DNA of 32,000 bases, from the NCBI RefSeq assembly GCF_000015585.1, contig NC_008789.1, positions 1,380,001 through 1,412,000 of the forward strand, written 5' to 3'. The translations under genes were made by a program, and so were the position numbers. The notes beneath the pieces were generated by a model, which was not told where the DNA came from, did no database searches, and saw nothing but the letters and a program-made list of their open reading frames with translations. Below, piece after piece: positions 14,720-32,000 of the stretch. Position 1 is the first letter of the stretch. The number at the start of each line of letters is the position of its first letter. The stretch comes from Halorhodospira halophila SL1. Lineage in GTDB: Bacteria > Pseudomonadota > Gammaproteobacteria > Nitrococcales > Halorhodospiraceae.

Positions 14720-15961
14720 TCACACCTTCACCTGATCGACGATCTCCGCCAGGCGGCTCGTGCCGATCCCGTCGACTTCCTCAAGCTGCTCGATCCGCCG
14801 GATCGGTCTCAGGGCGACGATCGCCTCGGCGCGCTCCGGGCCGATGTGGGGGATCGCCTGGAGTTCTTCGATGGAGGCCGTGTTGAGGTCGATGCGCCCC
14901 GTCGGCTCGTCGCCCTGCCCCGCCCCCGGTGCACCACGAGCCGACCGCGCTGAGGATGGCTTCGAGGCCTCATCCACCGGCCGGGCCGGCTCGATCTGTA
15001 GCTGGGCGTGATCAGCGAAGATCTCCAGCATCTGCTCCTGGAGCACCGTCCGTGGGCCCTGGATCAGGGCCAGGTCATCGGCCTCAAAGAGCAGTGCCGC
15101 CCGCCGGGACCCCTCCAGTTTCTCGGCCGCCACTTCGGCGAGCAGCGCGATCAGGATCCGGTGCGCATCCTCCCTCGGCTGAACGGCGGCGCGGCAATGT
15201 TCAAGTCCCTGGGCCGCCTCGGCGAAGACCTCCGGGGAGCGCGGGAGCGCGACCCATCCCGTCTTCTCGGTGACCCGTCGGTACGTCCGCTGGCCGTCCT
15301 GCAGCGCCTCACCCCGCCCCCAGACGGCCACCGCCAGGGCGAAGGAGGCGCTGAGCCGGTCCGCGTCCCAGCGGTTGATCGCCTGCTCGACAGCCTCGTC
15401 GATCCGCCGGCGCTGTCGGCGCAGCCAGGCATTGCGCCACCACCGCGGCAGGGCGTGCACGTTGTCACCGACCCACTGGCCGAGGGCGATGGCGCCGCGC
15501 AGCAGCCCGCCAATGAGCATCAAGAGCAGCTGCACCGCCCCGACGATGGCAGCGACGACCATGTAGATCAGCTGCAGCTGCGCCGCCTTCTGCCCCCGGA
15601 CCTGGACGCCGAAGGGCTTCGCCGAGGAGCGGTTGGGCTTGAGCCAGTTGAACGAGCCGAGCCGATTGCGCGTGGAGACCGTCGCGCCGCTCTTGGAGAG
15701 GTTCAGCTTGGTTGGCCCCTTCCCGTAGCGACCGCGCAGGATGAACCGTCCGTTCTGCAGGGCCACCTGGGTGTTCTTCGCCGGCGTTACCGAAGCCCGG
15801 ACGCCGCGCCGGGTGTTGGCGGTAAGATCCACGCCCGCCGCCCGGGCCTGGGCGCGCAGCGCCACGCCGCCGGTGCGACTGGCCCGCAGGTACTTGCCGC
15901 GGTGCTCGACGCGCCGCTGCTTGCCGTAAGCGTCCTTCGTGCCGAGATTAAACAGGGCCAT
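14720..15961 (-). CDS. Membrane protein with DUF4236-like basic N-terminus, one TM helix and C-terminal tandem helix-hairpin-helix (ComEA-like) DNA-binding domain
   Basis: GPTKLNLSKSGATVSTRN resembles the DUF4236 signature. The TM segment is LIYMVVAAIVGAVQLLLMLIGGLL. The C-terminus reads IDLNTASIEELQAIPHIGPERAEAIV...LEEVDGIGTSRLAEIV (two HhH). I chose start MALFNLG (15961), which is preceded by GAGGAG. Confidence 0.68.
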   Translation of the reverse strand: MALFNLGTKDAYGKQRRVEHRGKYLRASRTGGVALRAQARAAGVDLTANTRRGVRASVTPAKNTQVALQNGRFILRGRYGKGPTKLNLSKSGATVSTRNRLGSFNWLKPNRSSAKPFGVQVRGQKAAQLQLIYMVVAAIVGAVQLLLMLIGGLLRGAIALGQWVGDNVHALPRWWRNAWLRRQRRRIDEAVEQAINRWDADRLSASFALAVAVWGRGEALQDGQRTYRRVTEKTGWVALPRSPEVFAEAAQGLEHCRAAVQPREDAHRILIALLAEVAAEKLEGSRRAALLFEADDLALIQGPRTVLQEQMLEIFADHAQLQIEPARPVDEASKPSSARSARGAPGAGQGDEPTGRIDLNTASIEELQAIPHIGPERAEAIVALRPIRRIEQLEEVDGIGTSRLAEIVDQVKV

Positions 15962-16144
15962 CACGCTCCTCACCGGTGTGCCGTCATCCGCTATAGCGGC
16001 GGGCATGCCCTTCTACACCACCCCCGCGACACCATCTGTCGTCGCATTCGGAGACCATCCTTCCCGAACTGCGGGCTTCCCCGGACCTCTTTCAATCCCG
16101 CATGATGTGCCGTAGAAATACCTCGATCGCACACGGACCGAGCG

Positions 16145-17146
16145 ATGACCGACAGCCTTCTGCGTCAGTGGACGATGCTCCAGCACATCCCCCGCCAGCC
16201 GCGGGGGATCAGCGCCGGCCAACTCCACGACCGGTTGCGCTGCGAGGGCTACGCGGTCTCGCTGCGCACCGTCCAGCGCGATCTCAACACCCTCTCCAGT
16301 GAATTCGCGCTGGTCTGCGAAAGCGTGGGCAACGAGCAGCACTGGTCGTGGCTCGCCGATGCGCCGGTGCTCGACGTCCCCGGTCTCTCGCCGGCGGCGG
16401 CGCTGGCCTTCCGGCTTGCCGAGCTCCACCTCGGCGCTCTGCTGGCTCCGGAGGCGCTACGGGCCCTGCGGCCGCACTTCGAGGCGGCCAAGCGGGTCCT
16501 CAACCAAGGCGGCTCGCAGCTCTCCCACTGGCCGAATCGTGTCCGCGTCCTGACCCGTTCCCAGCCCCTACTCGCCCCGGACGTCGACCCGGGGGTCTAC
16601 GACCGGATCTGCCAGGGACTCCTTGAGGGCCGGCAGCTCTACGTCCACTACCGCCCGCGTAGCCGGGGCAGCGAGCTGCGAAGCTACCGGATGCATCCGC
16701 TCGGGCTGGTTATGCGCGATCCGGTCAGCTACGTGGTGGCGACGCTGCGCGACTACACCGATGTCCGGCAGATGGCGCTGCACCGCTTCGAGGCGGTGGA
16801 GCTGCTCGACGACCCGATTGCCCCGCCGGCGGGCTTCGACCTGGATGCCTACATCCACGAGCAGCGGGCCTTCGATCTGCCCGACACCAACGAACCCGTC
16901 GCCCTGCACCTGCGGATCAGCGCCGGCGTGGCCGAGCATCTTACGGAGGCGCCGCTGTCCGAGGATCAACGGATCGAAGCCTGCGACGACGGCTGGTGGA
17001 GCCTGCGCGCCACGGTGCCCCTGACCGCACAACTGCGCTGGTGGCTGCTCGGCTTCGGGCAGGCGGTGCAGGTCCTCGAGCCGCAAGCGTTGCGAGACGA
17101 GCTCGCCGCCGAACTTCGGGCTGCGGCCGACTTGTACGACGAATAA
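16145..17146 (+). CDS. WYL-domain transcriptional regulator (HTH-WYL-WCX architecture, BrxR/CapW/PafBC-like)
   Basis: N-terminal wHTH (LLRQWTMLQHIPRQPRGISAGQLHDRLRCEGYAVSLRTVQRDLNTL). Central WYL-type segment (LYVHYRPRSRGSELRSYRMHPLGLVMRDPVSYVVATLRDYTDVRQMALHRFEAVELL). Confidence 0.85.
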   Translation: MTDSLLRQWTMLQHIPRQPRGISAGQLHDRLRCEGYAVSLRTVQRDLNTLSSEFALVCESVGNEQHWSWLADAPVLDVPGLSPAAALAFRLAELHLGALLAPEALRALRPHFEAAKRVLNQGGSQLSHWPNRVRVLTRSQPLLAPDVDPGVYDRICQGLLEGRQLYVHYRPRSRGSELRSYRMHPLGLVMRDPVSYVVATLRDYTDVRQMALHRFEAVELLDDPIAPPAGFDLDAYIHEQRAFDLPDTNEPVALHLRISAGVAEHLTEAPLSEDQRIEACDDGWWSLRATVPLTAQLRWWLLGFGQAVQVLEPQALRDELAAELRAAADLYDE

Positions 17147-18520: not shown

Positions 18521-19314
18521 GCTGATCTCAAGAATCAAGCGCAACAGTCTTCGAGAAGGCCTGAAGCTCTTCAGTCATGGCCTCCTCGGGCGTTCTGAAG
18601 TCCAGTGCCTTGCGTGGCCGCTGGTTGAGAAGCCGCGCAATATCATTGAGTTGGGTCTGGCTCGGCTCGCTGAGATCGGCGCCCTTGGGCAGGTACTGGC
18701 GCAGCAGGCCGTTGGTGTTCTCGTTGCTGCCACGCTGCCAGGGCGCGTGCGCATCGGCGAACCAGATCGACAGATTCAACCGCCGGGCAAGCCGCTCATG
18801 GCAGGCCATCTCGCTGCCCCGGTCGTAGTCAGACTCTGACGCAGGATTGCCGGCAGGCGCCTCATCTGCCGATGGAAGCCCTCCAGGGCGGCCTCGGCGG
18901 TACCGTCGTGCATCTTGCTCAGTACGACGTAGCGGGTCTTGCGCTCAACCAGCGTGCCGACCGAGGAGCGGTTGTAGGCGCCCTTGATCAGGTCGCCCTC
19001 CCAGTGGCCGGGCATCAGCCGCTGCTCGATCTCTTCAGGCCGATAGGCGATGCGCAGGTGCTCCGGGGCGATCGAGCCGCCTCGCGCGGCCGTGCGCCGC
19101 CGTTGCCCGCGCTGCGGTTTCTGGCGGCGAAGCGCCCGGATCAGCTCCTGCTTGAGCGAGCCCTTGGGATGGGCATAGATCGCCGCGTAGATGGTCTCGT
19201 GGCTGACGCGAGCCTCAGGATCCTCGGGGTTCATACGCGCCAGTCTGCCGGCGATCTGCTCGGGAGACCACTGCCAGTAGCACAGCCGGTCCAGGACGTA
19301 GCGATACAGCCATC
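18521..19314 (-). mobile_element. IS30-family element, second copy, degraded (1-bp deletion and 5' truncation of the transposase)
   Basis: Near-identical to 9266-10060, with a few SNPs. One G is missing near 18826 (GTCGTAGTCAG versus GTCGTAGGTCAG), which splits the ORF into 18528-18809 and 18776-19345. It is cut at 19314 by the IS3 left end. Confidence 0.88.
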
Positions 19315-19370
19315 TGGTCTTGCCCACCAACCGTGGACACCTCAATAGCTACCATTCGACGAGGTGATCC

Positions 19371-19685
19371 ATGACGAGGCAAGCTACTCAGATGAGCAAG
19401 ACCAAGGCGAAGTCCAAGCGCACACGCTACACCCAGGCCTATCGAGACGAGGCGCTGGCGTTGGCCGAGCGCGTCGGCGTCAGCGAGGCGGCCCAGCAAC
19501 TCGGGATCCAGCCGGCGCAGATCTACCAGTGGCGCACCAAGGCCCGGACCGAAGCGGACCGCTCGCAGCGAGAGCGGGAGTTGGCCGAGGAGAATGCCCG
19601 GCTCAAGCGTCAGCTCTCGGAAGCGAATGAGGAGCTGTCGATCACAAAAAAGGCCGCGGCGTACTTCGCGAAAAACCAGAAGTGA
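19371..19685 (+). CDS. IS3-family transposase OrfA (HTH)
   Basis: 104 aa with an HTH (VSEAAQQLGIQPAQIYQWR) and a leucine-zipper-like tail. Contains the A6G frameshift site. Confidence 0.88.
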   Translation: MTRQATQMSKTKAKSKRTRYTQAYRDEALALAERVGVSEAAQQLGIQPAQIYQWRTKARTEADRSQRERELAEENARLKRQLSEANEELSITKKAAAYFAKNQK

Positions 19686-20548
19686 AGTACGCGTTCATCG
19701 ATCAGCAGCGTCACGAGCACCGGGTCCAGGCGATGTGCCGCGTCCTTGGCGTTGCTCGCAGCGGCTTCTACGCATGGTGTCGGAACAAAGCTGTCCGCGC
19801 CGCACGGGAAGAGCGCCAGCAGGCCTTTGATGGGCAGGTGCAAGAGGCCTTCGAAGACTCCAGGCAACGCTCTGGAGCGCCTCGACTGACGCGAGAGCTG
19901 GACGGGCAAGGCGTGTCGGCCAATCGCAAGACCGTGGCCCGGAGCATGCGCCGTCAGGGCCTCCGGGCACGCACGTCACGCCGGTTTAAGGTGACGACGA
20001 ACTCGGCTCACAGCCTGCCGGTCGCGCCAAACCACTTGGCCCAGCACTTTGAAGCGGAGCAGCGGAACCAGAAATGGACTGGCGACATCACGTATTTGGC
20101 GACCGGCGAAAGATGGCTCTATCTCGCGGTCGTCCTGGATCTTTGTGGCCGCAAAGTGATCGGTTGGGCCATGCGCGAGCAGATGAGCGCTGAACTGGCC
20201 TGTGAGGCGCTTCAGATGGCCCTGGAACGGCGAGGCTACCCCACGGGGGTCATCGTCCATACGGATCGAGGCAGCCAGTACTGCTCCCGTGCGTACCGCA
20301 GGCTCATCAGCGACTACGGGCTGATCAGCAGCATGAGCGCGAAGGGCAGCTGCTACGACAATGCCTGCAACGAGAGCTTTTTCCGTTCCCTGAAGGTCGA
20401 GGCCCTGCATGGCGAGAAATTCCCCACGCGGGCCTCGATGCGTGAGGCCGTCTTCGAATACATTGAGGGCTACTACAATCGCCGGCGTCTTCATAGCACG
20501 CTCGGGTACCTATCCCCGGACGACTACGAGGCCCGGCTTAATAGCTAA
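19682..20548 (+). CDS. IS3-family transposase OrfB (DDE/rve integrase core); normally expressed as an OrfAB fusion by -1 frameshifting
   Basis: WTGDITYL...HTDRGSQYCS...CYDNACNESFF...YYNRRRLHSTLGYLSP are the canonical IS3 DDE motifs. Confidence 0.9.
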   Translation: MKYAFIDQQRHEHRVQAMCRVLGVARSGFYAWCRNKAVRAAREERQQAFDGQVQEAFEDSRQRSGAPRLTRELDGQGVSANRKTVARSMRRQGLRARTSRRFKVTTNSAHSLPVAPNHLAQHFEAEQRNQKWTGDITYLATGERWLYLAVVLDLCGRKVIGWAMREQMSAELACEALQMALERRGYPTGVIVHTDRGSQYCSRAYRRLISDYGLISSMSAKGSCYDNACNESFFRSLKVEALHGEKFPTRASMREAVFEYIEGYYNRRRLHSTLGYLSPDDYEARLNS

Positions 20549-20578
20549 CACCGTGTCCACGTTCGCTGGGTAAGACCA

Positions 20579-21316
20579 CCCGGCAGAGCGCTGCCAGCTC
20601 GCCGAAAGCACCTGCTCAACGGCGGGTTTGAGCCCCGGTGAGCGTCACAGATGACCAGCTCGACCCCGCACCCGTCAAACCCCGACCGATGACCTCGCGG
20701 AGGAACTGCTTCGAGAACCCCTCCGTCTCGTTCGACCCCAACGACAGGCCCAGTGCCTCCCAGCGCCCTACGGTGTTGACGCCGACCGCGATCAGGCAGG
20801 CCTTAGAGATCACCCGGCCGTGCTCGCGGACCTTGATGTAGGTGGCATCGAGCAAAAGAAATGGCCAGCGCCCCTCGCTCGGTCGGCTCAGGAACGCCCC
20901 CACCCCCTCGTCGATGAACTGGCACAGCCGCGAGACCTGCGAATTTGAGATCCCCTCCATGCAGACGGCCTTGACGAGCTCGTCGACGGAGCGGGTCGAC
21001 ACCCCCTGGATATAGGCCTCCTGAACAACCCCGACGAGCGCCTGCTACATTGCCGCCGCGGCTCCAGGAACGAGCGCAGATAGTTGGCGTGGCGCAGACG
21101 CGGCACCTTTAGCTCCATGGAGCCGACCCGTCTGTCTTAGCGCCGGCTACGGTAGCCGTTGCGATAGTCCGTGCGCTAATGGCGCTGATCCCCCCACATC
21201 GAGTCCGCCTTGGCCTCCATGAGCTGCTGGACGATTTCATGGACCAGCATGCGCAGAAAGTCGACGTCGCCACCCTTCTCAGCCATCTCCAGCAGTGCGA
21301 ACCTGTTATCAGCCAT
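20579..21316 (-). pseudogene. IS256-family transposase, degraded and 3'-truncated by IS3 copy 1
   Basis: My minus-strand translation gives MADNRFALLEMAEKGGDVDFLRMLVHEIVQQLMEAKADSMWGDQRH*, then YRNGYRSRR*DRRVGSMELKVPRLRHANYLRSFLEPRR. After a frameshift it reads STRSVDELVKAVCMEGISNSQVSRLCQFIDE...LLLDATYIKVREHGRVIS. These are typical IS256 motifs interrupted by stops and frameshifts. Confidence 0.8.
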
Positions 21317-21709
21317 CGCGGACCTCCATTCGATTGGGTTTCTTCGTTTACTGGCCCGAATCCTAACGGGGTCGGCGGTGGCCCTTCACCTCCCTGAAGC
21401 CCACCCCACTACAGCTGCCCTGCTGTAGCTTTTACGCATTCCTGGGGACTCTACTGCAAGACCAGATTTCCGTCGCTAACTAATCGCCGAAGTGTCTACC
21501 TTCGAGTTATCTTCGTGACTAGGGAGTTCCGCGTATACTGCGCCCATTCTGCGACAACGTGCCCGACTAGCAGAATATGCCTCCCCTTCACGCACGACCT
21601 ATACTTGCCATCGATAGTCTGCGCTAAGGTGCCGGCAGGATAGGCTCGGATAACTTTTCACACCCGTAGACCTCCCAAATAACCATCAGCCCTCTAGCTG
21701 GGTGATCGC

Positions 21710-23038
21710 ATGAGGTTCACTATGGTTGATAACAAAACCCCTCAGATTAGTGTACAGAAAATCACGCTAAGGATCTTTATGGGGGCGTGCTTTATCCTGA
21801 TGTGTATAGCCTGTAACTCATCGAGCGACAACGATGAAACGGAGCACGAGAGTGATACGCCGGAGGTAACACATGAATTAACTCTCGAACCCAGTGAATC
21901 CAGCCTTAAAGCTGAGTGGCTTGACTCTGAGGATGTGACCTACAATCTGATTTACGGCCAGGACGAGGACATTTTAACCGATCCAGCTAACTACGCCACC
22001 TACGATGGGAGCATGGATCAAGACGTCAGCTCTCCACATGAAATCAAGGGACTGGAAAAGGAATCGACTTACCATGTTGTTCTTGAAGTTGACGACGAGC
22101 GTGGCACCCGTTATCCAGCGAAAGAATCAACTACGCTGAATTCGGAAAAAATTTTAAGCTCGAGCGATGTGTTATGGATATTTGAAAAGCATGATGGAGT
22201 CGTACGTAGCCTCGCAGCGTATGATAGCACCGTTTACAGCAGCGGCAACGATGAGACGGTCCGCGCCATAGACGCAAAAAGTGGGGACGAGATATGGGTT
22301 TTTGAGGAGCATTTTGACTTTATCTACAGCGTTGAAAACTATGAGGGCACAGTCTACAGCGCTGCCCGAGGCGGTGCATCAAGCATAAAAGATGGTTATG
22401 ATAGCACCGTCCGCGCAATTGATTCTGGAACAGGTGAAGAGAAATGGGTGTTTGACGGTAACAGATCTTTTTATGACGTTGCCGCAGCCGACAACTCCGT
22501 ATATGCTGCAAAATCAAGCGGGAGCGTCCTTCAGATAGACGCTGAAAAAGGATCAAGGAAACAGGTTATCGGACAACATGATCGTCAAGCCAGAGGCGTT
22601 GCGGTAGCGGGCGGGACTGTATTTAGCGCCGGTCATGATACAACTATACGCGCTTTCGACGTAGAACAAGAAGAAGAGAAATGGGTCTACGAGGGGCCAG
22701 AAAGCCCCCACAAAAACTTCTTGAGTGTTGCAGCAACCAAGGAAGCAGTTTACGCGGGCAGCGACACCTCTATAAGGGCGCTTGACGCTGATACAGGCGA
22801 GAAGCAGTGGGCTTATGAGGACATACAGTCCGGTGGGTTTTACACCGTTAAAGAACTTGGCGACGTGGTATACGGCGGAAGCCTTGACGGAAAAGTTCGG
22901 GCAATCGATTCGAAAACGGGTGAAAAGAAGTGGGTCTTTGCAGAACATGAAGACCACGTGCGGGCTGTCGTGCCAACCGAACATGCTATATATAGTGGCG
23001 ATAGCGGCGGGACAATCTTAGCTATTGATCCCCCTTGA
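21710..23038 (+). CDS. Lipoprotein with FN3-like segment and PQQ-like/BamB-like beta-propeller repeats
   Basis: Lipobox-like FILMCIAC followed by an acidic linker. The motif (D/G)xT(V/I)RA(I/L)Dxx(T/S)GE(E/K)KWV(F/Y) recurs six to seven times about 40 aa apart. AT-richer than the surroundings. Exact start uncertain. Confidence 0.78.
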   Translation: MRFTMVDNKTPQISVQKITLRIFMGACFILMCIACNSSSDNDETEHESDTPEVTHELTLEPSESSLKAEWLDSEDVTYNLIYGQDEDILTDPANYATYDGSMDQDVSSPHEIKGLEKESTYHVVLEVDDERGTRYPAKESTTLNSEKILSSSDVLWIFEKHDGVVRSLAAYDSTVYSSGNDETVRAIDAKSGDEIWVFEEHFDFIYSVENYEGTVYSAARGGASSIKDGYDSTVRAIDSGTGEEKWVFDGNRSFYDVAAADNSVYAAKSSGSVLQIDAEKGSRKQVIGQHDRQARGVAVAGGTVFSAGHDTTIRAFDVEQEEEKWVYEGPESPHKNFLSVAATKEAVYAGSDTSIRALDADTGEKQWAYEDIQSGGFYTVKELGDVVYGGSLDGKVRAIDSKTGEKKWVFAEHEDHVRAVVPTEHAIYSGDSGGTILAIDPP

Positions 23039-23189
23039 AAAACTACTAGGCTGCTGGAAAAGTCGGTTTTGTCATGTCATAAAGGTTGTCGTTGATCGCG
23101 TAATGGTCCAGCGCACCGGTTTGGCCTGGAAACTGGTCTTGCCCACCAACCGTGGACACCTCAATAGCTACCATTCGACGAGGTGATCC

Positions 23190-23504
23190 ATGACGAGGCA
23201 AGCTATTCAGATGAGCAAGACCAAGACGAAATCCAAGCGCACACGCTACAGCCCGGCCTATCGAGACGAGGCGCTGGCGTTGGCCGAGCGCGTCGGCGTC
23301 AGCGAGGCGGCCCAGCAGCTGGGGCTCCAACCGCCGCAGATCTACCAGTGGCGCACCAAGGCCCGGAACGAAGCGGACCGCTCGCAGCGAGAGCGGGAGT
23401 TGGCCGAGGAGAATGCCCGGCTCAAGCGTCAGCTCTCGGAAGCGAATGAGGAGCTGTCGATCACAAAAAAGGCCGCGGCGTACTTCGCGAAAAACCAGAA
23501 GTGA
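23190..23504 (+). CDS. IS3-family transposase OrfA (copy 2)
   Basis: 104 aa, differing in a few residues from copy 1. The A6G slippery site is at 23465-23471. Confidence 0.85.
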   Translation: MTRQAIQMSKTKTKSKRTRYSPAYRDEALALAERVGVSEAAQQLGLQPPQIYQWRTKARNEADRSQRERELAEENARLKRQLSEANEELSITKKAAAYFAKNQK

Positions 23505-24369
23505 AGTACGCGTTCATCGATCAGCAGCGTCACGAGCACCGGATCCAGGCGATGTGCCGCGTCCTTGGCGTCGCTCGCAGCGGCTTCTACGCATGGTGCC
23601 GGAACAAGGCGGCCCGCGCCGCACGGGAAGAACGCCAGCAGGCCTTTGATGGGCAGGTGCAAGAGGCCTTCGAAGACTCCAGGCAACGCTCTGGAGCGCC
23701 TCGACTGACGCGAGAGCTGGACGGGCAAGGCGTGTCGGCCAATCGCAAAACCGTGGCCCGGAGCATGCGCCGTCAGGGCCTCCGGGCACGCACGTCACGC
23801 CGGTTTAAGGTGACGACGAACTCGGCTCACAGCCTGCCGGTCGCGCCAAACCACTTGGCCCAGCACTTTGAAGCCGAGCAGCGGAACCAGAAATGGACTG
23901 GCGACATCACGTATTTGGCGACCGGCGAAGGATGGCTCTATCTCGCGGTCGTCCTGGATCTTTGTGGCCGCAAAGTGATCGGTTGGGCCATATGCGCGAG
24001 CAGATGAGCGCTGAACTGGCCTGTGAGGCGCTTCAGATGGCCCTGGAACGGCGAGGCTACCCTACGGGTGTCATCGTCCATACGGATCGTGGCAGCCAGT
24101 ACTGCTCCCGTGCGTACCGCAGGCTCATCAGCGACTACGGGCTGATCAGCAGCATGAGCGCGAAGGGCAGCTGCTACGACAATGCCTGCAACGAGAGCTT
24201 TTTCCGTTCCCTGAAGGTCGAGGCCCTGCATGGCGAGAAATTCCCCACGCGGGCCTCGATGCGTGAGGCCGTCTTCGAATACATTGAGGGCTACTACAAT
24301 CGCCGGCGTCTTCATAGCACGCTCGGGTACCTATCCCCGGACGACTACGAGGCCCGGCTTAATAGCTAA
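23501..24369 (+). pseudogene. IS3-family transposase OrfB (copy 2), frameshifted
   Basis: Split into track ORFs 23501-24007 and 23893-24369 by the 2-bp insertion near 23990. Confidence 0.85.
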
Positions 24370-27333: not shown

Positions 27334-27615
27334 CTATCCAGACCTCCCTTGCATCGAGTCGGTGAACGAGGAATTCCGAGGACGCCCTTTGCGCGGCGCG
27401 CCCTTCTTCAATAACTTGGCCGGCTCAGCCCCTGGGTACTCCACCCTACTCTCAAGCCAGGCGTCCACGTCGTCCAGGCGCCAGCGGTAATGGCGGCCTA
27501 GCTTGATGTAGGGAGGCAAATCCTGACCTCGACAGAGCCTGGCACGAATCGCACCAGGCGCTAATCCGAGGTACTGTGCAAGATCGTTGGTGGTGAGAAG
27601 CGGTGGTCGGTGCAT
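27334..27615 (-). CDS. AlpA/excisionase-family (HTH_17) DNA-binding protein
   Basis: LLTTNDLAQYLGLAPGAIRARLCRGQDLPPYIKLGRHYRWRLDDVDAWLE is a typical MerR-like excisionase/AlpA fold. The gene sits next to attR, at the opposite end of the island from the integrase. Confidence 0.8.
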   Translation of the reverse strand: MHRPPLLTTNDLAQYLGLAPGAIRARLCRGQDLPPYIKLGRHYRWRLDDVDAWLESRVEYPGAEPAKLLKKGAPRKGRPRNSSFTDSMQGRSG

Positions 27616-27735: not shown

Positions 27736-27848
27736 AGGCAAAAACTTGTCATTCGCCGTAACGTGGAGTAATCTCCAGTAACTGTAAACGACTGATTGGT
27801 CGCGCCTTTATAGCGTAAGCGCTTGTTCCTCGGGACAGTCTGATGGCT

Positions 27849-27894
27849 TTCACACGGCAGGGGTCGCTGGTTCGATCCCAGCGCCGCCCACCAA
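27849..27894 (+). repeat. attR: 46-bp direct repeat copy of the tRNA-Val 3' end
   Basis: Identical to 8562-8607. The upstream tRNA half is absent, so this is not a second tRNA gene. Confidence 0.88.
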
Positions 27895-28084
27895 CTTCCC
27901 TGCGGCTTAAGCCTCTTCCACCAGGCTCTGGGTCGCTTAAGTCTCACAGCGCCCCCCTCCCCCGCCGTGACGCTCCCAAGTGCGTCATTGGATGATACCC
28001 TCGGAGTCTTGCAAACACGTCATCCTGGCGACAGGTGTCGCGTTGCTGGGACGCTTCTTCGCCTGACGACGAACGACCAGGATC

Positions 28085-28447
28085 ATGTCCGACCAATACC
28101 CTGAGTCCTTCCGAGAGTTCCAGCAGCAGCTACACAGTTTCGTCGCCGAGCGCGACTGGTCACAGTTCCATACCCCGAAGAACCTGGCTATGGCCCTGGC
28201 CGGCGAGGTCGGGGAACTCGTCGAGCATTTCCAATGGCTGAGCAACGAGGCCTCTGACAGCCTGCCGGTGGGAAAGCTAGCAGAGGTACGTCGTGAACTG
28301 GCGGACATCCAGATCTATACGCTGTTGCTGGCCAATCGGCTGGAGTTGGATCTTGCCGCGGCCGTCCGCGATAAGATTGCTGAAAACGAAGCCAAGTATC
28401 CGCCGGACCGCGCCTTCGGGCGGTCTGACAAGTACACCGATCTTTAA
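28085..28447 (+). CDS. MazG-type nucleoside triphosphate pyrophosphohydrolase (small all-alpha, DCTPP1-like)
   Basis: FVAERDWSQFHTPKNLAMALAGEVGELVEHFQW and RRELADIQIYTLLLANRLELDL carry the ExxE/ExxD metal-binding helices of the MazG-like family. 120 aa. Confidence 0.85.
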   Translation: MSDQYPESFREFQQQLHSFVAERDWSQFHTPKNLAMALAGEVGELVEHFQWLSNEASDSLPVGKLAEVRRELADIQIYTLLLANRLELDLAAAVRDKIAENEAKYPPDRAFGRSDKYTDL

Positions 28448-28455
28448 AGACCCTG

Positions 28456-30906
28456 ATGCTTGTCTATAGCGGCGACAAGAGCACCTTCCTCACGGATGTA
28501 GCGGATAACCGGATCTCGGATCGCATCCTCGCAGCCATGACCCGACGCAGTATGGGCGGGGTCAGTGAGAGCGAACGCCGATCCTGGGAGCAGTCCCTGC
28601 TCTACATGAAGAACGTGGTCGAGGACCCGAACATCCCGGATGACGCCGGCATCGCTGTGGAGTACCGCATCCCGCAGACATCCAAGCGGGTAGACGTCAT
28701 CATATCTGGCCTCGATGACGAACAACGCGAGTCCTGCGTCATCATTGAGCTCAAGCAGTGGCAGCACGCCGAGGCTACCGGCAAGGACGCCATCGTTCGC
28801 ACACTCCTAGGCGGTGGGATCCGGGAAACCACTCACCCCTCCTATCAGGCGTGGAGTTACAGCACGCTACTGGAGGATTTCAACGAAGCTGTGCAGAACG
28901 GCGGGATTCGGCTGACCCCGTGCGCCTATCTGCACAACTGCACCGACGGCAGCGGCCTCCAGGAACCACTCTACGACCGCTATCTGCAGTGCGCCCCGCT
29001 CTTCCTCCGGCACGACACACAAAAGCTGCGCGCGTTCATTCGGAGGTATGTCCGGTACGGTGACCATCGCCGCGTCCTTTATCGCATCGACCAAGGGCGT
29101 ATCCGCCCCTCCAAAGACTTGGCCAGTTCCCTCGCCCGTCTGATCCGCGGCAACCGAGACTTCCTGATGATCGACGACCAGAAGGTTGCCTACGAGGCTG
29201 CCCTGGAAGTCGGGACTATCGCTCAGGAATTCGGCAAGCAGGTACTGATCGTCGAAGGAGGTCCGGGCACGGGAAAGTCCGTAGTCGCCATCAACTTGCT
29301 GGTTGAACTGACCAAGCGCCACCAGACTGTCCACTACGTCACTCCGAACCGGGCGCCGCGGCAGGTCTACGAAGGACGGTTGACGGGCACTCTGACCAAA
29401 ACCCGGTTCAGCAACCTCTTCAAAGGGTCCGCCGCGTATGACAACGCGGAGCGTGACGAAATGGATGGGCTCCTCGTTGACGAAGCCCACCGCCTTCAGG
29501 AGCGCTCGCGGTGGCAGCGCGCTGGAACCAACCAGATCCGTGACATCATCCGCGCGGCCCGGACCAGCGTCTTTTTCGTCGATGAGGCGCAGCAGGTCAC
29601 CTGGAACGACACCGGCTCCATCCAGGAAATCGAGCGCTGGGCACGCGCTGAGGGGGCCACCATCCATCGCGCCGCACTGCAGTCACAGTTCCGCTGCAGC
29701 GGTTCCGACGGCTACCTGGCGTGGCTCGATCAAGCTCTCCAGATCCGCGACACGGCTCAGAAGGACCTGCACGGCATCCGTTACCACCTAGAAGCCGTTG
29801 ACTCCCCCCGAACCCTCTACCAGCGCATTGTGGAACTAGACGGCAACGGTTCCAGGGCTCGTTTGGTGGCCGGTTACTGCTGGGATTGGATCAGCAAGAA
29901 AGACCCCTGCGCGTGGGATATCACGTTCCCGGAAGAGAATCTCTTCATGCGGTGGAATCTTTACGAGGACGAGGGACGCTACCTGGAGAAGACGCACTCG
30001 ATCGATCAAGTCGGATGCATCCATACGGTACAAGGTCTGGAGATGGACTACGTGGGGGTGATCATTGGCCCCGACCTGATCGTGCGCAACGGCCACGTCG
30101 TCACCCAGCCCTCCAAACGGGCCCGCACGGACCGATCCCTTCACGGCTACAAGACTGCTCGCAAGGAGGCCCCGGAAGAGTGCGACGCCCGGGCGGACGC
30201 GATTATCAAGAACACCTATCGAACCTTGATGAGCCGCGGCCTCAAGGGGTGCCTGATCCACTGCACGGATCCGGAGACACAGGCCTACTTCCGGCAGGAG
30301 ATCGAGGCCGCTTTCTCCCAGCCTTCGGACAATACGGAGGCTTCGACGTTGCAGCCGGCGCCGGTCATTCCCCTGGATGAACAGTCATCGACCGAAGCGG
30401 AGGATGAACCGCGCACTATCCCCGCCGAAGCAGTCACGCCAGCGGATAACGCTGTGCCGTTTATCGAACTGGAGGCCGCTGCCGGAGAGTTTCAGGCGGG
30501 ATTCGCTGAGGCGGAGCGCCTTGAAGAGACGGAGACTTGGATTGCTTTGCCGGAACTCTACCGCGCCCGCCGCGGGTTGTTCGTTGCACGCGTCAAAGGA
30601 GAGTCCATGAATCGGCGCATCCCGAATGGCGCCTGGTGCCTCTTCGAGGCCAACCCCGGTGGATCGCGGCACGGCCGGGTCGTGCTCGCGTACCACCGGG
30701 ATATCCAGGACCCGGACAACAATTCTGCGCTGACTGTAAAACGGTACTACAGCGAGAAGATCACCTCGGCCGACGGCCAATGGCAGCACTCACGGATTAC
30801 CCTGGCCTGCGACACCCTGACCCCAGGCTATGAGGATATCGTGCTTGAGGAAGAGCAGGCGCGGGATCTTCGGATACTGGGAGAGTTCAAGGGCACCGTT
30901 GCCTGA
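28456..30906 (+). CDS. DUF2075-family (PD-(D/E)xK nuclease-like N-terminus plus P-loop SF1-like ATPase, Schlafen-helicase/Nhi-like) protein fused to a C-terminal LexA/UmuD-type S24 peptidase domain
   Basis: N-terminus KRVDVIISG...CVIIELKQW (D...ExK). Walker A VEGGPGTGKSVVAINL. Walker B LLVDEAHRL. C-terminal helicase-core motifs IHTVQGLEMDYVGVIIG and RTLMSRGLKGCLIH. An acidic linker follows, then VPFIELEAAAGEF (Ala676-Gly677), VKGESM (Ser717) and LTVKRYY (Lys762). It starts 8 nt after the MazG stop. Confidence 0.85.
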   Translation: MLVYSGDKSTFLTDVADNRISDRILAAMTRRSMGGVSESERRSWEQSLLYMKNVVEDPNIPDDAGIAVEYRIPQTSKRVDVIISGLDDEQRESCVIIELKQWQHAEATGKDAIVRTLLGGGIRETTHPSYQAWSYSTLLEDFNEAVQNGGIRLTPCAYLHNCTDGSGLQEPLYDRYLQCAPLFLRHDTQKLRAFIRRYVRYGDHRRVLYRIDQGRIRPSKDLASSLARLIRGNRDFLMIDDQKVAYEAALEVGTIAQEFGKQVLIVEGGPGTGKSVVAINLLVELTKRHQTVHYVTPNRAPRQVYEGRLTGTLTKTRFSNLFKGSAAYDNAERDEMDGLLVDEAHRLQERSRWQRAGTNQIRDIIRAARTSVFFVDEAQQVTWNDTGSIQEIERWARAEGATIHRAALQSQFRCSGSDGYLAWLDQALQIRDTAQKDLHGIRYHLEAVDSPRTLYQRIVELDGNGSRARLVAGYCWDWISKKDPCAWDITFPEENLFMRWNLYEDEGRYLEKTHSIDQVGCIHTVQGLEMDYVGVIIGPDLIVRNGHVVTQPSKRARTDRSLHGYKTARKEAPEECDARADAIIKNTYRTLMSRGLKGCLIHCTDPETQAYFRQEIEAAFSQPSDNTEASTLQPAPVIPLDEQSSTEAEDEPRTIPAEAVTPADNAVPFIELEAAAGEFQAGFAEAERLEETETWIALPELYRARRGLFVARVKGESMNRRIPNGAWCLFEANPGGSRHGRVVLAYHRDIQDPDNNSALTVKRYYSEKITSADGQWQHSRITLACDTLTPGYEDIVLEEEQARDLRILGEFKGTVA

Positions 30907-31056
30907 CTCTAGGGGTATCGACACGGCCGTCGAAATCGGCGTGGTTCACCACCAAGAGCGCGCCCGGCCCCAAATCGCGGGCCAGCAGGGCGCACTAGTC
31001 GACCCCGGTTGACAGGCGCAAATCGGAGCGCCGAGCCAGTGGCTTTGCCCCCTCAC

Positions 31057-31428
31057 TCAGAGCGCGTAGGCCTTCAGCGTATCGAGGTCAATCACGGCCA
31101 GGGTCTCGGCATGCTTAGCGTGCAGATCCACCATCGGAGCCACTCCCGCGCGGTAGGCCTCCATCCAGCGGCCGGCGCAACGACACCATCGGTCCCCGGG
31201 CTGAAGGCCGGGAAACCCCATGCCCGGATTGGGGGCCGTCAGGTCGTTGCCCTGCTCCCGGGTAAAGCTCAGAAACGCCTCGTCCAGCCGGGCGCAGACC
31301 GTGTGGATTCCAACGTCCTCGTGACCAGTATTGCAGCAGCCGTCCCGGTAAAAGCCGGTCAAAGGCTGAGTGCTACAAGGCGCGAGGGGCTGGCCGAGCA
31401 CATTGAGGGACTCGAAAGGCTGGCTCAT
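31057..31428 (-). CDS. DUF2237-family protein
   Basis: LNVLGQPLAPCSTQPLTGFYRDGCCNTGHEDVGIHTVCA...GDRWCRCAGRW matches the conserved Cys-rich DUF2237 pattern. I chose start MSQPF (31428), which is preceded by GGAG. Confidence 0.78.
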   Translation of the reverse strand: MSQPFESLNVLGQPLAPCSTQPLTGFYRDGCCNTGHEDVGIHTVCARLDEAFLSFTREQGNDLTAPNPGMGFPGLQPGDRWCRCAGRWMEAYRAGVAPMVDLHAKHAETLAVIDLDTLKAYAL

Positions 31429-31456
31429 TGCGATCTCCAACTCCGAAGATGGGGGA

Positions 31457-31628
31457 TCATGCGGCAGGGGTGCTCATCCACCGGCGCCCGAAGTAGTCAA
31501 GCACCCCGTCGATGCGCACCCCGACATTGTCGCGGGTGATGACCTCCTGTTTGGGGAAGTCACCTCGGGGATGGCAGCCGCATCATTCATGCACCGCCGG
31601 AGCAGCATCAGTGCCAGCGGTACCAACA
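31457..31628 (-). pseudogene. SPFH/band-7 (stomatin-like) gene fragment (low confidence)
   Basis: One minus frame reads FPKQEVITRDNVGVRIDGVLDYF, which resembles the conserved QEVITKDNVxVxVDGVxxY segment of SPFH proteins. It is bounded by stops, and a TM-like piece (VVLVPLALMLL) lies in another frame. Confidence 0.35.
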
Positions 31629-32000
31629 CCACCCCGGAGAACGCGGTCTGGGGTGTCGGCCAACGGCTCGCCGATCGCCTGGCTGAGCTCGGCATTCAGA
31701 CCACCGAGGATCTCGCCAGGTTACCCCCGCGGCGGATCCGTCAGCACTTCCCCGTGACCCTGGCGCGAACGGCGGAGGAGCTGCGGGGCTGCGCCTGCCA
31801 CGACCTTGAAAGCGAACCGGCGCCCCGGCAGCAGATCGTCTGCTCGCGTACTTTCGGCACGCCGGTTCGTGACAAGCCGGCGCTGCGCGAGGCCGTGGCG
31901 GATTACGCGGCGCGGGCTCAATCGGCGGACCTGGTGTTCTGGGTCCGTGAGGCGGGGGGAGCGTTAGTGCCCACAGATGGTGTTATGCACAACAGCCCTC
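31629..32000 (+). pseudogene. Second, internally deleted copy of the umuC 3' region and its downstream spacer
   Basis: 31629-31910 aligns with 12695-12976. 31911-31933 aligns with 13266-13288. 31934-32000 aligns with about 14238-14304. By eye there is roughly one mismatch per 10-15 nt. umuD and the first ~178 codons of umuC are missing. Confidence 0.85.

What the first reader, a model, noticed from the sequence alone, without database searches (positions are those of the whole stretch)
28085..30906. MazG pyrophosphohydrolase plus DUF2075 nuclease/ATPase-S24 fusion: candidate RecA*-gated effector operon at an island hot spot
Seen in sequence: two same-strand genes are separated by 8 nt, directly after attR of the tRNA-Val island. 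Gene 1 is a 120-aa MazG-type NTP pyrophosphohydrolase with its metal-binding helices intact. Gene 2 (816 aa) has four parts. The first is a PD-(D/E)xK-like N-terminus (RVDVIISG...VIIELKQW). The second is a P-loop ATPase/helicase-like core (GPGTGKS, LLVDEAH, IHTVQGLEMDYVGVIIG). The third is an acidic linker. The fourth is a complete LexA/UmuD-type S24 module. I scanned 27950-28084 for CTG-N10-CAG and found no SOS box, so any coupling to DNA damage would be post-translational. Established knowledge: S24 domains of LexA, UmuD and phage repressors self-cleave when bound to RecA-ssDNA filaments. MazG-family enzymes hydrolyse (d)NTPs or alarmones. The DUF2075/Schlafen-group-III helicase family includes, to my recollection, the staphylococcal anti-phage nuclease-helicase Nhi. 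Inference: the pair could be a defence or abortive-infection module, or a damage-licensed DNA-processing module. In that model a nuclease-helicase is switched by RecA*-induced autoproteolysis and works with a nucleotide-pool-modifying partner. I do not know of a described system with this domain architecture.
Basis: partly seen in the sequence, partly recalled or inferred. Interest (0 to 1): 0.85.

Follow-up and report, generated by a model that had tools for sequence, protein, structure and literature searches.

The report
Nuclease-helicase with LexA-like self-cleaving switch
Next to a tRNA-linked genomic island sits a two-gene mobile module, a dCTP-cleaning enzyme plus a DNA-cutting helicase related to phage-defence proteins, and the helicase carries a LexA-type self-cleaving tail that probably lets DNA-damage or infection signals (RecA filaments) switch it directly, an arrangement that is widespread in bacteria but undescribed.

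Summary
Gene 1 (28085-28447) is a DCTPP1/RS21-C6-type MazG-like dCTP pyrophosphatase. Gene 2 (28456-30906) has four parts: a PD-(D/E)xK-like N-domain, a full SLFN-g3/DUF2075 SF1B helicase, an acidic disordered linker, and an S24 module with Ala676-Gly677, Ser717 and Lys762.

The survey changes the emphasis. The conserved unit is MazG plus nuclease-helicase, adjacent in 64 of 76 assessable loci across many phyla, also on plasmids and in one phage record. S24 is a swappable C-terminal add-on. It occurs in 13 of 100 representative clusters, always with cleavage site and dyad intact, in at least two unalignable S24 types, scattered over the core tree.

No LexA box lies upstream (5/76 loci against 4.3 expected), so any RecA coupling is post-translational. 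Recurrent neighbours are restriction, Abi and toxin-antitoxin genes, many of which read modified cytosine.

PADLOC gives only weak partial hits (Nhi, AbiO, PDC-S41). No paper links DUF2075 with S24 or MazG.

Best reading (confidence 0.45): a mobile defence-type module whose effector is docked and licensed by RecA*-stimulated autoproteolysis. Cleavage, RecA dependence, nuclease activity and phenotype remain untested. Verdict: new variant of a known kind; interest 0.7.

The parts
27846..27897 (+). attR: a 52-nt direct repeat of the 3' end of tRNA-Val (8532-8606). It marks the right end of the 19.3-kb island. This is context, not part of the module.
   Evidence: 25-nt core exact; 0 expected by chance
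27898..28084 (+). Upstream intergenic region of the operon. It has no LexA/SOS box and no sigma-70 consensus match.
   Evidence: Family-wide there is no SOS-box enrichment: 5/76 loci against 4.3 expected.
28085..28447 (+). Gene 1: a 120-aa all-alpha MazG-like NTP pyrophosphohydrolase of the DCTPP1/RS21-C6 (dCTP pyrophosphatase) type.
   Evidence: PF12643 at E 1e-13. PDB 6sqw/2a3q dCTP pyrophosphatase 1 at E 5e-24 over residues 6-120.
28205..28306 (+). Metal-binding motifs of gene 1: E41-x-x-E44 (28205-28216) and E71-x-x-D74 (28295-28306).
   Evidence: Seen in the sequence. Conserved in at least 71 of 72 partner MazG genes, as are W25, H29, W51 and Y78.
28456..30906 (+). Gene 2: an 816-aa nuclease-helicase-S24 fusion, 8 nt downstream of gene 1 (operon).
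28456..29220 (+). N-terminal domain (residues 1-255), PD-(D/E)xK-like. The putative catalytic residues E69, D80 and E98-L-K100 are encoded at 28660-28755.
   Evidence: The residues are invariant in 32 diverse homologues. They sit on predicted strands 65-70, 79-86 and 92-100 in a confident model (pLDDT 82.9). The Foldseek best hit EndoMS/NucS is not significant (E 0.057). There is no Pfam or PDB sequence hit.
29236..30270 (+). SF1B helicase/ATPase core, SLFN-g3 (DUF2075), residues 261-605. Walker A is at 29257-29280 and Walker B (LLVDEAH) at 29470-29490.
   Evidence: PF09848 at E 3e-103 with full model coverage. Foldseek hits: SLFN11 7zel E 5e-10, then RecD2, Dna2, IGHMBP2, Upf1.
30316..30450 (+). 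Acidic, variable, disordered linker (residues 621-665).
   Evidence: 10 D/E against 1 K/R. pLDDT <50 for 624-649. The region is length-variable and unconserved in alignment A1.
30451..30903 (+). LexA/UmuD-type S24 autoprotease module (residues 666-816).
   Evidence: PF00717 at 27.2 bits against a cut-off of 23.3. The sub-profile hits LexA structures (3k2z, E 0.011). hhalign against E. coli LexA 72-195 gives E 1e-4.
30481..30486 (+). Predicted scissile bond Ala676-Gly677, within AAAGEF.
   Evidence: Invariant A-A-G in A1 and A3. It aligns to LexA Ala84-Gly85. An [AC]-G site is present in all 13 S24-bearing representative clusters.
30604..30606 (+). Predicted nucleophile Ser717, within KGESM.
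   Evidence: Invariant. It aligns to LexA Ser119.
30739..30741 (+). Predicted general base Lys762, within LTVKRY.
   Evidence: Invariant. It aligns to LexA Lys156 in TVKRL.

Best explanation
This is a horizontally mobile, defence-type two-gene module.

Gene 2 encodes an Nhi/AbiO-class effector: a PD-(D/E)xK-like nuclease fused to a DUF2075/Schlafen-group-3 SF1B helicase. Its C-terminus carries a LexA/UmuD-like S24 autoprotease on a flexible acidic tether.

Proposed mechanism. In uninfected, undamaged cells the S24 module keeps the enzyme restrained, most likely as an S24-mediated dimer, as in LexA. RecA-ssDNA filaments (RecA*) form during DNA damage, or when phage DNA is replicated, recombined or resected. 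The S24 module then docks in the filament groove and adopts the cleavable conformation, and Ser717/Lys762 cut the Ala676-Gly677 bond. This frees the 676-residue nuclease-helicase at or near RecA-coated ssDNA, where it unwinds and degrades DNA.

Gene 1, a DCTPP1-type pyrophosphatase, hydrolyses dCTP or 5-modified dCTP. That would either sanitise the pool of modified nucleotides released by DNA degradation or starve phages that use modified cytosine.

Shown here: domain identities, invariance of the catalytic and cleavage residues, operon co-conservation, lack of LexA-box control, mobility, and restriction/Abi-type neighbours.

Inferred: self-cleavage, RecA* dependence, the direction of the switch (activation), nuclease activity, MazG substrate, and anti-phage role.

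My rough sub-probabilities are: self-cleavage occurs about 0.8; it is RecA*-stimulated, given cleavage, about 0.75; the module serves conflict/defence rather than housekeeping repair about 0.65; cleavage activates rather than inactivates about 0.6.
For: Domains:
- Pfam and PDB matches support all three domain calls.
- The predicted fold is an SF1B helicase, with SLFN11 as the top hit.

Conservation:
- D80, E98-x-K100, Walker A/B, A676-G677, S717 and K762 are invariant in 32 homologues sharing only 50-93% identity.
- All 13 S24-bearing representative clusters keep the [AC]-G site, Ser-Met and Lys.
- At least two S24 types that cannot be aligned to each other sit on the same core. P0125 has a core 47% identical to the window's but an S24 that does not align. 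P0140 has a 39% core and a 54% S24.
- S24 forms are scattered over the core tree, with 12 parsimony changes. This points to repeated recruitment with the catalytic features retained.

A second family: a PLD-SF2 helicase-DUF3427 nuclease-helicase also carries an embedded S24. It lies next to the DUF2075-S24 gene in Spiribacter and is itself widespread.

Coupling to RecA must be post-translational: there is no SOS box here or family-wide, although a near-consensus box precedes the umuD-like gene in the same window.

MazG partner:
- It is adjacent on the same strand in 64 of 76 loci: 51/60 S24 forms and 13/16 S24-less forms.
- Its metal-binding residues are conserved in at least 71 of 72 partners.
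- No third gene is co-conserved.

Mobility:
- GC is 61% against 66-69% in the flanks.
- Context differs even in relatives at 70-93% identity.
- Copies occur on plasmids, including a 25-kb plasmid and archaeal plasmids, and in a Microcystis phage record.

Neighbours: RhuM-Fic, AbiEi/AbiEii, HNH, Mrr, McrBC-like, GmrSD, C5-methyltransferases, PLD-DUF3427 helicases, PDC-S05/S23.

Literature:
- DUF2075 proteins Nhi and Nhi-like defend against phage (10.1101/776245; 10.1101/2022.05.11.491447), and PF09848 is treated as an Abi Pfam (PMC10121019).
- The LexA C-terminal domain binds the RecA* groove only in its cleavable conformation (PMC11787620).
- DCTPP1 acts on abnormal or 5-methyl cytosine triphosphates (PMC4491611, PMC13510388).
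Against: - No experiment exists. Cleavage, RecA* dependence, nuclease activity, dCTPase activity and phage phenotype are all inferred.
- The S24 Pfam score in the window protein is only just above threshold (27.2 against 23.3), and AlphaFold is unsure about residues 676-687.
- The N-terminal nuclease fold was not confirmed.
- Most family members (about 87% of representative clusters) lack S24 yet keep MazG. S24 is therefore not needed for the core function, and the core enzyme cannot be very toxic without it, which weakens the idea of inhibition relieved by cleavage.
- Defence-island association is qualitative only. No background control could be computed, and several loci sit among housekeeping genes.
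- 12 of 76 loci lack MazG.
- PADLOC does not recognise either protein as a member of a known system.
Confidence: 0.45

Rival explanations
1. Autoimmunity fuse. The domains are the same but the logic is opposite. The full-length enzyme, dimerised through S24, is the active defence or DNA-processing form. RecA* signals that host DNA is being damaged and triggers self-cleavage, which inactivates or disperses the enzyme, as cleavage inactivates LexA and lambda CI by separating the functional domain from the dimerisation domain.
For: In LexA and CI, cleavage inactivates by uncoupling the N-domain from the S24 dimerisation domain (established knowledge; PMC11787620). S24-less relatives are evidently tolerated, so S24 is not required to restrain toxicity. 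Frequent gain and loss fits an optional safety device.
Against: S24-less homologues presumably work without S24-mediated dimerisation, so loss of S24 need not inactivate. UmuD shows that S24 cleavage can also activate. No data bear on direction.
Confidence: 0.2
2. DNA-damage processing module rather than immunity. This would be an accessory SOS-type effector in which RecA* post-translationally licenses a Dna2/RecD2-like nuclease-helicase to process stalled forks or gaps, while the DCTPP1-like enzyme sanitises damaged or modified dCTP. It would be a bacterial counterpart of SLFN11 acting at stressed forks.
For: Fold relatives include Dna2, RecD2 and SLFN11. S24 is the canonical DNA-damage sensor. 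DCTPP1 is a pool-sanitising enzyme (PMC13510388). Some loci lie among housekeeping or repair genes, for example Ogt/MGMT downstream in the Nitrosomonadales contigs.
Against: The distribution is patchy and mobile: plasmids, a phage record, and different contexts in close relatives. GC is atypical. Recurrent neighbours are restriction, Abi and TA genes. There is no LexA box. DUF2075 nuclease-helicases with tested functions are anti-phage (10.1101/776245).
Confidence: 0.2
3. The S24 module is not a RecA* sensor. It would serve only as a dimerisation or scaffold domain, or undergo constitutive, RecA-independent maturation cleavage, so the enzyme is regulated by something else, such as substrate features or ATP.
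For: The S24 is divergent (Pfam 27 bits; LexA structures at E 0.011-0.5). RecA-contact residues could not be assessed. Some LexA-like proteins are reported not to respond to RecA (own knowledge).
Against: The scissile [AC]-G, Ser and Lys are retained in 13 of 13 S24-bearing clusters and 32 of 32 aligned homologues despite 30-50% divergence and domain swapping. That indicates selection for catalysis, not mere scaffolding. One variant (P0135) with an S24-like tail lacking Ser-Met shows what degeneration looks like.
Confidence: 0.1
4. Addiction or toxin-antitoxin-like selfish module. The small upstream MazG would neutralise a toxic nuclease-helicase, and the pair persists by post-segregational killing rather than by benefiting the host.
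For: Small-gene-then-large-gene operon with overlapping or near-overlapping ORFs. The pair is carried on plasmids. TA systems are frequent neighbours.
Against: MazG keeps all catalytic residues, so it is an enzyme and not a mere binder. 12 of 76 loci lack MazG and seven have it downstream, so the helicase is tolerated alone.
Confidence: 0.05

Closest known systems
Nhi (SERP2475, Staphylococcus epidermidis), 'Nhi-like' (Millman et al. 2022) and lactococcal AbiO: single-protein anti-phage nuclease-helicases with DUF2075
   Same: N-terminal PD-(D/E)xK-type nuclease motif followed by a DUF2075/SF1B helicase core. The family is treated as defence/Abi-associated (10.1101/776245; 10.1101/2022.05.11.491447; PMC10121019).
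   Different: Similarity is distant. PADLOC Nhi and AbiO models give 37.7 bits over the P-loop region only, and S24-less relatives score 33-60 bits against the AbiO and Nhi models. The known proteins are single-gene systems, with no MazG partner and no S24 module.
PADLOC candidate PDC-S41
   Same: Best PADLOC hit. It shares pieces of the N-terminal domain and the C-terminal helicase region.
   Different: Only 36-65 bits over partial stretches of a 657-position model. It is an untested candidate, and no S24 or MazG is known for it.
LexA, UmuD and lambda CI (MEROPS S24 autoproteases)
   Same: Ala/Cys-Gly scissile bond, Ser-Lys dyad, beta-rich fold, and position at the C-terminus behind a flexible linker. 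These align to LexA 72-195.
   Different: The cargo is a 620-residue nuclease-helicase instead of an HTH DNA-binding domain (LexA, CI) or a 24-residue peptide (UmuD). The sequence is divergent. RecA* stimulation is untested.
DCTPP1 / RS21-C6 (mammalian all-alpha dCTP pyrophosphatase)
   Same: E 5e-24 over the whole protein. ExxE/ExxD metal sites and the aromatic residues W25, W51 and Y78 are identical in the alignment.
   Different: Bacterial, 120 aa, and operonic with a nuclease-helicase. Substrate is untested. The role assigned to the aromatic residues as the base pocket rests on my recollection of the RS21-C6 structure paper.
Human SLFN11 (and SLFN5/14) C-terminal helicase
   Same: Same Pfam family (PF09848) and top structural match (7zel, E 5e-10). 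Conceptually, SLFN11 is recruited to RPA-coated ssDNA at stressed forks, whereas here an S24 module could dock on RecA-coated ssDNA.
   Different: SLFN11 has an N-terminal tRNA endoribonuclease (Schlafen core), not PD-(D/E)xK. It has no protease module and shares only 12% identity.
PLD-SF2 helicase-DUF3427 proteins (modification-dependent restriction-like; DUF3427 as a modified-cytosine reader, PMC6765204)
   Same: A second nuclease-helicase family that carries an embedded S24 with a Cys-Gly site and GDSM. It is adjacent to the DUF2075-S24 gene in Spiribacter and is a neighbour in 5 other loci. PMC6765204 already noted DUF2075 NTPases next to DUF3427 enzymes.
   Different: Unrelated nuclease (PLD) and helicase (SF2). 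The S24 is internal, not terminal. No MazG partner.

Membership tests
SLFN-g3 / DUF2075 helicase (PF09848) | Full-length match to the family profile above the gathering score | tested here: met
   346 bits against a cut-off of 24, model positions 1-354/354, residues 261-605
SLFN-g3 / DUF2075 helicase (PF09848) | P-loop NTPase motifs (Walker A GxxGxGKS, Walker B DE) and an SF1B-like two-RecA-domain fold | tested here: met
   GGPGTGKS and VDEAH are invariant. Foldseek hits include SLFN11, RecD2, Dna2, Upf1 and IGHMBP2 at E 5e-10 to 1e-5.
Nhi / Nhi-like / AbiO anti-phage nuclease-helicases | Recognised by the system's own HMM over most of its length | tested here: not met
   PADLOC Nhi and AbiO give 37.7 bits, restricted to residues 254-387. 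The same holds for S24-less relatives.
Nhi / Nhi-like / AbiO anti-phage nuclease-helicases | Architecture: N-terminal PD-(D/E)xK nuclease plus DUF2075 helicase | tested here: inconclusive
   The motif E69/D80/E98-x-K100 is invariant and lies on predicted beta-strands. The fold search's best hit, EndoMS (a PD-(D/E)xK nuclease), reaches only E 0.057 and prob 0.57.
Nhi / Nhi-like / AbiO anti-phage nuclease-helicases | Stand-alone single-gene system | tested here: not met
   MazG partner is adjacent in 64 of 76 loci.
Nhi / Nhi-like / AbiO anti-phage nuclease-helicases | Protects against phage when expressed | not testable with these tools
   Needs phage challenge.
Peptidase S24 (LexA/UmuD/CI autoproteases) | Profile match above the gathering score | tested here: met
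   27.2 bits against 23.3 in the window protein. Other family members reach E 2e-23 (P0125). hhalign against LexA gives E 1e-4.
Peptidase S24 (LexA/UmuD/CI autoproteases) | Ala-Gly or Cys-Gly scissile bond N-terminal to the catalytic core | tested here: met
   A676-G677 is invariant and aligns to LexA A84-G85. All 13 S24-bearing clusters have [AC]-G.
Peptidase S24 (LexA/UmuD/CI autoproteases) | Ser-Lys catalytic dyad | tested here: met
   S717 (GESM) aligns to LexA S119 and K762 (TVKRY) to LexA K156. Both are invariant.
Peptidase S24 (LexA/UmuD/CI autoproteases) | Self-cleavage stimulated by the RecA-ssDNA-ATP filament | not testable with these tools
   Requires biochemistry. RecA-contact surfaces are not sequence-defined well enough to score (PMC11787620).
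LexA-type SOS repressor | N-terminal winged-HTH DNA-binding domain | tested here: not met
   The N-terminal 620 residues are nuclease-helicase, with no HTH Pfam hit.
SOS regulon member (transcriptional) | LexA box in the promoter region | tested here: not met
   None in 27898-28084. 5 of 76 related loci have one against 4.3 expected.
MazG-like / DCTPP1 all-alpha NTP pyrophosphatase | Profile match and the ExxE...ExxD metal-binding motifs | tested here: met
   PF12643 at 51.8 bits against a cut-off of 27. DCTPP1 structures at E 5e-24. E41, E44, E71 and D74 are conserved in at least 71 of 72 partners.
MazG-like / DCTPP1 all-alpha NTP pyrophosphatase | dCTP or 5-modified-dCTP pyrophosphohydrolase activity | not testable with these tools
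   Needs an enzyme assay.
Defence-island resident / mobile defence module | Non-random proximity to known defence systems; patchy, mobile distribution | tested here: inconclusive
   Recurrent neighbours are RhuM-Fic (7 loci), AbiE (4-6), HNH_2 (5), PLD-DUF3427 helicase (5), C5-MTase (4), McrBC-like (3) and GmrSD. Copies occur on plasmids and in a phage record. No background control could be computed, and some contexts are housekeeping.

The most novel reading that the evidence does not exclude
LexA-type S24 autoprotease modules may be a general, unrecognised post-translational sensor that bacteria have grafted repeatedly onto immune nuclease-helicases. Two unrelated families show it here: DUF2075/Schlafen-type and PLD-SF2-DUF3427. 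RecA-coated ssDNA itself would then be read directly by effectors as an infection or damage signal, bypassing transcription. The effector docks on the filament, cuts itself free and attacks DNA there. This would be a bacterial analogue of SLFN11 recruitment to RPA-ssDNA, working with a DCTPP1-like enzyme that removes modified dCTP.
Probability: 0.3. Interest if true: 0.85.

Novelty: new variant of a known kind. Interest (0 to 1): 0.7.

Why it matters
How defence effectors sense infection is the main open question for most newly found systems. RecA* is known to control immunity only indirectly, through repressor cleavage and transcription. If this reading is right, an effector would carry its own RecA*-responsive protease switch, which is a new and simple sensing principle. 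It is testable with three point mutants and a RecA cleavage assay.

The fusion is not a curiosity:
- At least 8000 related 90%-identity clusters exist.
- S24 forms occur across Proteobacteria, Bacteroidota, Verrucomicrobiota, Nitrospirota and other phyla.
- A second helicase-nuclease family shows the same graft.

The finding also ties a Schlafen-type helicase to ssDNA-filament sensing in bacteria, echoing SLFN11 biology. The conserved DCTPP1-like partner points to nucleotide-pool editing of cytosine derivatives as part of a nuclease-based system, in line with the many modified-cytosine restriction genes nearby.

If the alternative 'fuse' logic is true, it would be a built-in autoimmunity brake, which would be equally new.

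Tried and rejected
1. Third conserved component. All-vs-all clustering of ORFs in 80 loci found only the helicase and MazG to be shared.
2. Transcriptional SOS control. No LexA box occurs at the locus and there is no family-wide enrichment.
3. A second attR downstream, which would place the pair inside a tandem island. None was found.
4. Membership of a named defence system. PADLOC gave only weak partial hits for the fusion and none for MazG. NCBIfam gave nothing useful.
5. Sequence search of the N-domain and of the full-length profile against PDB. This returned only noise or P-loop matches.
6. Fold search of the N-domain. The best hit is a PD-(D/E)xK nuclease (EndoMS) but it is not significant, so I keep 'PD-(D/E)xK-like' at motif level.
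7. Literature. There are no papers with DUF2075+MazG, DUF2075+S24 (beyond table numbers), Peptidase_S24+defence island, or LexA-like+anti-phage+nuclease fusions.
8. Hna (helicase/nuclease Abi protein). I considered it from memory and rejected it because its domain order is reversed (SF2 helicase N-terminal, nuclease C-terminal). It was not tested.
9. Sigma-70 promoter and terminator scan around the operon. It was uninformative in this GC-rich DNA.
10. Link of the pair to tRNA-Val in relatives. The 93%-identical homologue has no tRNA fragment upstream, so the 'hot spot' position is specific to this genome.
11. Quantitative defence enrichment. It could not be done because the bulk scan reports only family counts and there is no background set.

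Full report
OBSERVATION.

ARAGORN finds tRNA-Val at 8532-8606. Its last 52 nt recur at 27846-27897; the 25-nt core is exact, with none expected by chance. The pair therefore begins 187 nt beyond the attR of a 19.3-kb island. No further attR copy lies downstream, and the next gene is a DUF2237 gene on the other strand. The pair has 61.0% GC, against 68.7% (1-8500) and 66.1% (30907-32000) in the flanks and 62.7% in the island. It looks acquired even though it lies outside the repeat-bounded island.

GENE 1.

Pfam gives MazG-like PF12643 (E 1e-13) and MazG PF03819 (E 1e-4). Against solved structures, the best matches are mammalian dCTP pyrophosphatase 1 / RS21-C6 (6sqw, 2a3q; E 5e-24 over residues 6-120). 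The protein is therefore specifically a DCTPP1-type all-alpha pyrophosphatase.

The metal motifs E41-x-x-E44 and E71-x-x-D74 are present and conserved in at least 71 of 72 partner genes elsewhere. W25, H29, W51 and Y78 are also conserved and are identical to the mouse enzyme in the alignment. That they line the cytosine pocket is my recollection of the RS21-C6 structure paper and was not tested here. DCTPP1 hydrolyses abnormal or 5-methylated cytosine triphosphates (PMC4491611, PMC13510388).

GENE 2.

- Helicase core. Pfam matches the whole SLFN-g3/DUF2075 helicase model (residues 261-605, E 3e-103), and Peptidase_S24 at 677-767 (27.2 bits, cut-off 23.3).
- Conservation. An alignment of 32 homologues at 50-93% identity (A1) shows these residues invariant: E69, D80, E98-L-K100-Q-W, GGPGTGKS, D342-E343, A675-A676-G677, G715, S717-M718 and K762.
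- S24 module. A profile of the C-terminal 160 residues finds LexA structures. The best is 3k2z at E 0.011, aligning the AAG site and GESM. It places A676-G677 on A84-G85, S717 on S119 and K762 on K156.
- Full-length model. The AlphaFold model (pLDDT 79.5, pTM 0.67) has a disordered linker at 624-649 and a beta-rich C-terminal domain. Its PDB neighbours are SLFN11 (E 5e-10), DSH9, RecD2, Dna2, IGHMBP2, SLFN14 and Upf1, which makes it an SF1B helicase.
- N-terminal domain. The model of residues 1-255 is confident (pLDDT 82.9) and puts E69, D80 and E98-x-K100 on three consecutive strands, as in PD-(D/E)xK nucleases. The best structural match, EndoMS/NucS, is not significant (E 0.057), and sequence searches find nothing. 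I treat the nuclease as probable, not shown.

DISTRIBUTION AND WHAT THE UNIT IS.

The word-indexed search saturates at 8000 related 90%-identity clusters. The top 120 are all about 800-aa full-length matches from Ectothiorhodospiraceae, Halomonas, Thioalkalivibrio, Nitrospirota, Anaerolineae, Kiritimatiellia, Nitrosomonadales and others. The exhaustive search of 50%-identity representatives finds 5287 clusters at E<=1e-3 and 698 at E<=1e-30. Most of the best 150 are 615-650 aa and stop where the window protein's linker begins.

I fetched 80 genomic loci from GTDB species representatives. A MazG homologue lies directly adjacent on the same strand in 64 of the 76 loci with room to judge:
- 51 of 60 S24-bearing forms and 13 of 16 S24-less forms have it.
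- It is usually upstream with a 0-76 nt gap or an overlap, and downstream in Halomonas and a few others.
- Clustering all ORFs in these loci finds no third shared gene.

The conserved module is therefore MazG plus nuclease-helicase, and S24 is an addition.

S24 AS A SWAPPABLE MODULE.

Among 100 representative clusters with a full-length core, 13 carry an S24 tail. All 13 have an Ala-Gly or Cys-Gly site, a G-x-S-M serine and a downstream lysine. The tails are not all one lineage:
- P0125 has a core 47% identical to the window's, but a canonical LexA-like S24 (Pfam E 2e-23) that does not align with the window's S24.
- P0147 behaves similarly.
- P0140 has a 39% core and a 54% S24.
- On a neighbour-joining tree of the cores, S24 forms are scattered, with 12 parsimony changes. 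This is a crude tree and should be read qualitatively.

One variant (P0135) has an S24-like tail without the Ser-Met motif. Others carry a PIF1/RecD-like second helicase (P0196), or Sel1 repeats in place of the N-domain (P0230).

In Spiribacter roseus, the gene next to the DUF2075-S24 gene encodes PLD nuclease + SF2 helicase + S24 + DUF3427, with a Cys-Gly site and GDSM. That architecture is itself widespread: nearly all of the top 120 hits carry PF00717, and many also have a fused methyltransferase. Repeated grafting with the catalytic residues retained argues that autoproteolysis is the selected property.

REGULATION.

No CTGT-N8-ACAG box with up to 1 mismatch lies in 27898-28084. Across the related loci, 5 of 76 have such a box within 260 nt upstream, against 4.3 expected. 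By contrast, the island's umuD-like gene (11732-12160; Pfam S24 E 7e-28) is preceded by CTGAATAAAGTTACAG at 11689-11704. This suggests, from that single one-mismatch site, that the host uses this box type.

CONTEXT.

Immediate neighbours are heterogeneous, but the recurrent ones are conflict genes:
- RhuM-Fic (7 loci)
- AbiEi/AbiEii (4-6 loci)
- HNH_2 (5)
- PLD-SF2-DUF3427 helicases (5)
- C5 cytosine methyltransferases (4)
- McrB-like MrcB_N/AAA_5 with DUF2357-PDDEXK_7 (3)
- Mrr, nSTAND3, and the PADLOC candidates PDC-S05 and PDC-S23
- A 70%-identical relative sits near GmrSD, transposases, ParE and HicAB.

Many of these read or make modified cytosine.

Other loci are flanked by housekeeping genes. 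I could not compute a background, so defence-island enrichment is suggestive only.

The family also occurs on 79 plasmid records. These include a 25-kb Marivirga plasmid with the MazG gene, and archaeal plasmids carrying S24-less forms. It also occurs in a Microcystis phage record that carries the pair. The 93%-identical homologue has a different upstream context and no tRNA fragment.

COMPARISON WITH KNOWN SYSTEMS.

PADLOC v2 gives PDC-S41 (51.6 bits, partial), Nhi and AbiO (37.7 bits, P-loop region only), and nothing for MazG. S24-less relatives behave the same way. The family is thus a distant relative of Nhi/AbiO-type nuclease-helicases, not a member by profile.

DUF2075 is mentioned in only 10 papers in the library. 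None links it to S24 or MazG, and searches for S24- or LexA-like effector fusions in defence found nothing. Nhi and Nhi-like are experimentally anti-phage (10.1101/776245; 10.1101/2022.05.11.491447).

MECHANISM.

Established knowledge holds that the LexA C-terminal domain dimerises, binds the RecA* groove only in its cleavable conformation, and falls off after cleavage (PMC11787620). Transferred here, the S24 tail would dock the enzyme on RecA-coated ssDNA and then release the 676-residue nuclease-helicase by cutting Ala676-Gly677. I favour activation, or local delivery. The opposite logic, in which cleavage acts as an autoimmunity fuse, is a serious rival, because S24-less relatives are evidently tolerated. 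A housekeeping damage-processing role is less likely given the mobility and the neighbours. All biochemical steps are inferred.

VERDICT.

- Novelty: a new variant of a known kind (DUF2075 nuclease-helicases) with a new partner and a new, repeatedly recruited sensor module.
- Interest: 0.7.

Noticed in passing
window 11689-13431: The tRNA-Val island carries a umuD-like S24 gene (11732-12160, Pfam E 7e-28) and a umuC-like Y-family polymerase gene (12160-13431). They are preceded by a near-consensus SOS box, CTGAATAAAGTTACAG, at 11689-11704. The window therefore holds two independent S24 modules, one under a LexA box and one not.
   Followed up: partly
window 19314-24369: Two IS3-family transposase copies (about 1.1-kb direct repeats at 96-99% identity: 19314-20548 and 23133-24369) flank a low-GC (50-55%) segment encoding a PQQ/beta-propeller protein (21710-23038). 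The arrangement resembles a composite transposon inside the island.
   Followed up: partly
window 9266-9873 and 18521-19127: An approximately 600-nt near-perfect direct repeat lies within the island. One copy sits inside ORF 9006-10346, which has no Pfam hit. No tyrosine-integrase Pfam hit was found next to the tRNA. The island's right end has an HTH_17 (AlpA/excisionase-like) gene at 27334-27615 (-).
   Followed up: no
window 16145-17146; 14720-16006: The island encodes a WYL/WCX-domain regulator and an HHH-motif protein. WYL regulators often control defence or DNA-damage genes.
   Followed up: no
L083 3994-7272 (Spiribacter roseus CP016382.1): Divergently adjacent to the DUF2075-S24 homologue is a 1092-aa PLD nuclease + SF2 helicase + S24 (828-942; KIACGHF, GDSMNG) + DUF3427 protein, next to a methyltransferase. 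This S24-containing architecture is itself widespread (top 120 hits, many with a fused SAM methyltransferase at about 1285 aa) and appears undescribed.
   Followed up: partly
proteins P0135, P0196, P0230 (representatives of the family): Family variants: P0135 has an S24-like tail lacking the Ser-Met motif and may be degenerate. P0196 fuses a PIF1/RecD-like second helicase to the core. P0230 replaces the N-terminal domain with Sel1 repeats.
   Followed up: no
L091 4657-6863 (Microcystis phage Mwe-JY31, PP438423.1); L090 (Marivirga plasmid p1): An S24-less MazG + nuclease-helicase pair is present in a 22-kb record deposited as a phage genome and on a 25-kb plasmid. Archaeal plasmids (Methanosphaera, Halalkalicoccus) carry S24-less homologues.
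   Followed up: partly
L009, L013, L014, L016, L064 (Halomonas/Vreelandella): In Halomonas the gene order is inverted, with MazG about 130 nt downstream of the fusion. The pair is followed by an AbiEi/AbiEii toxin-antitoxin pair in a conserved arrangement across species.
   Followed up: no
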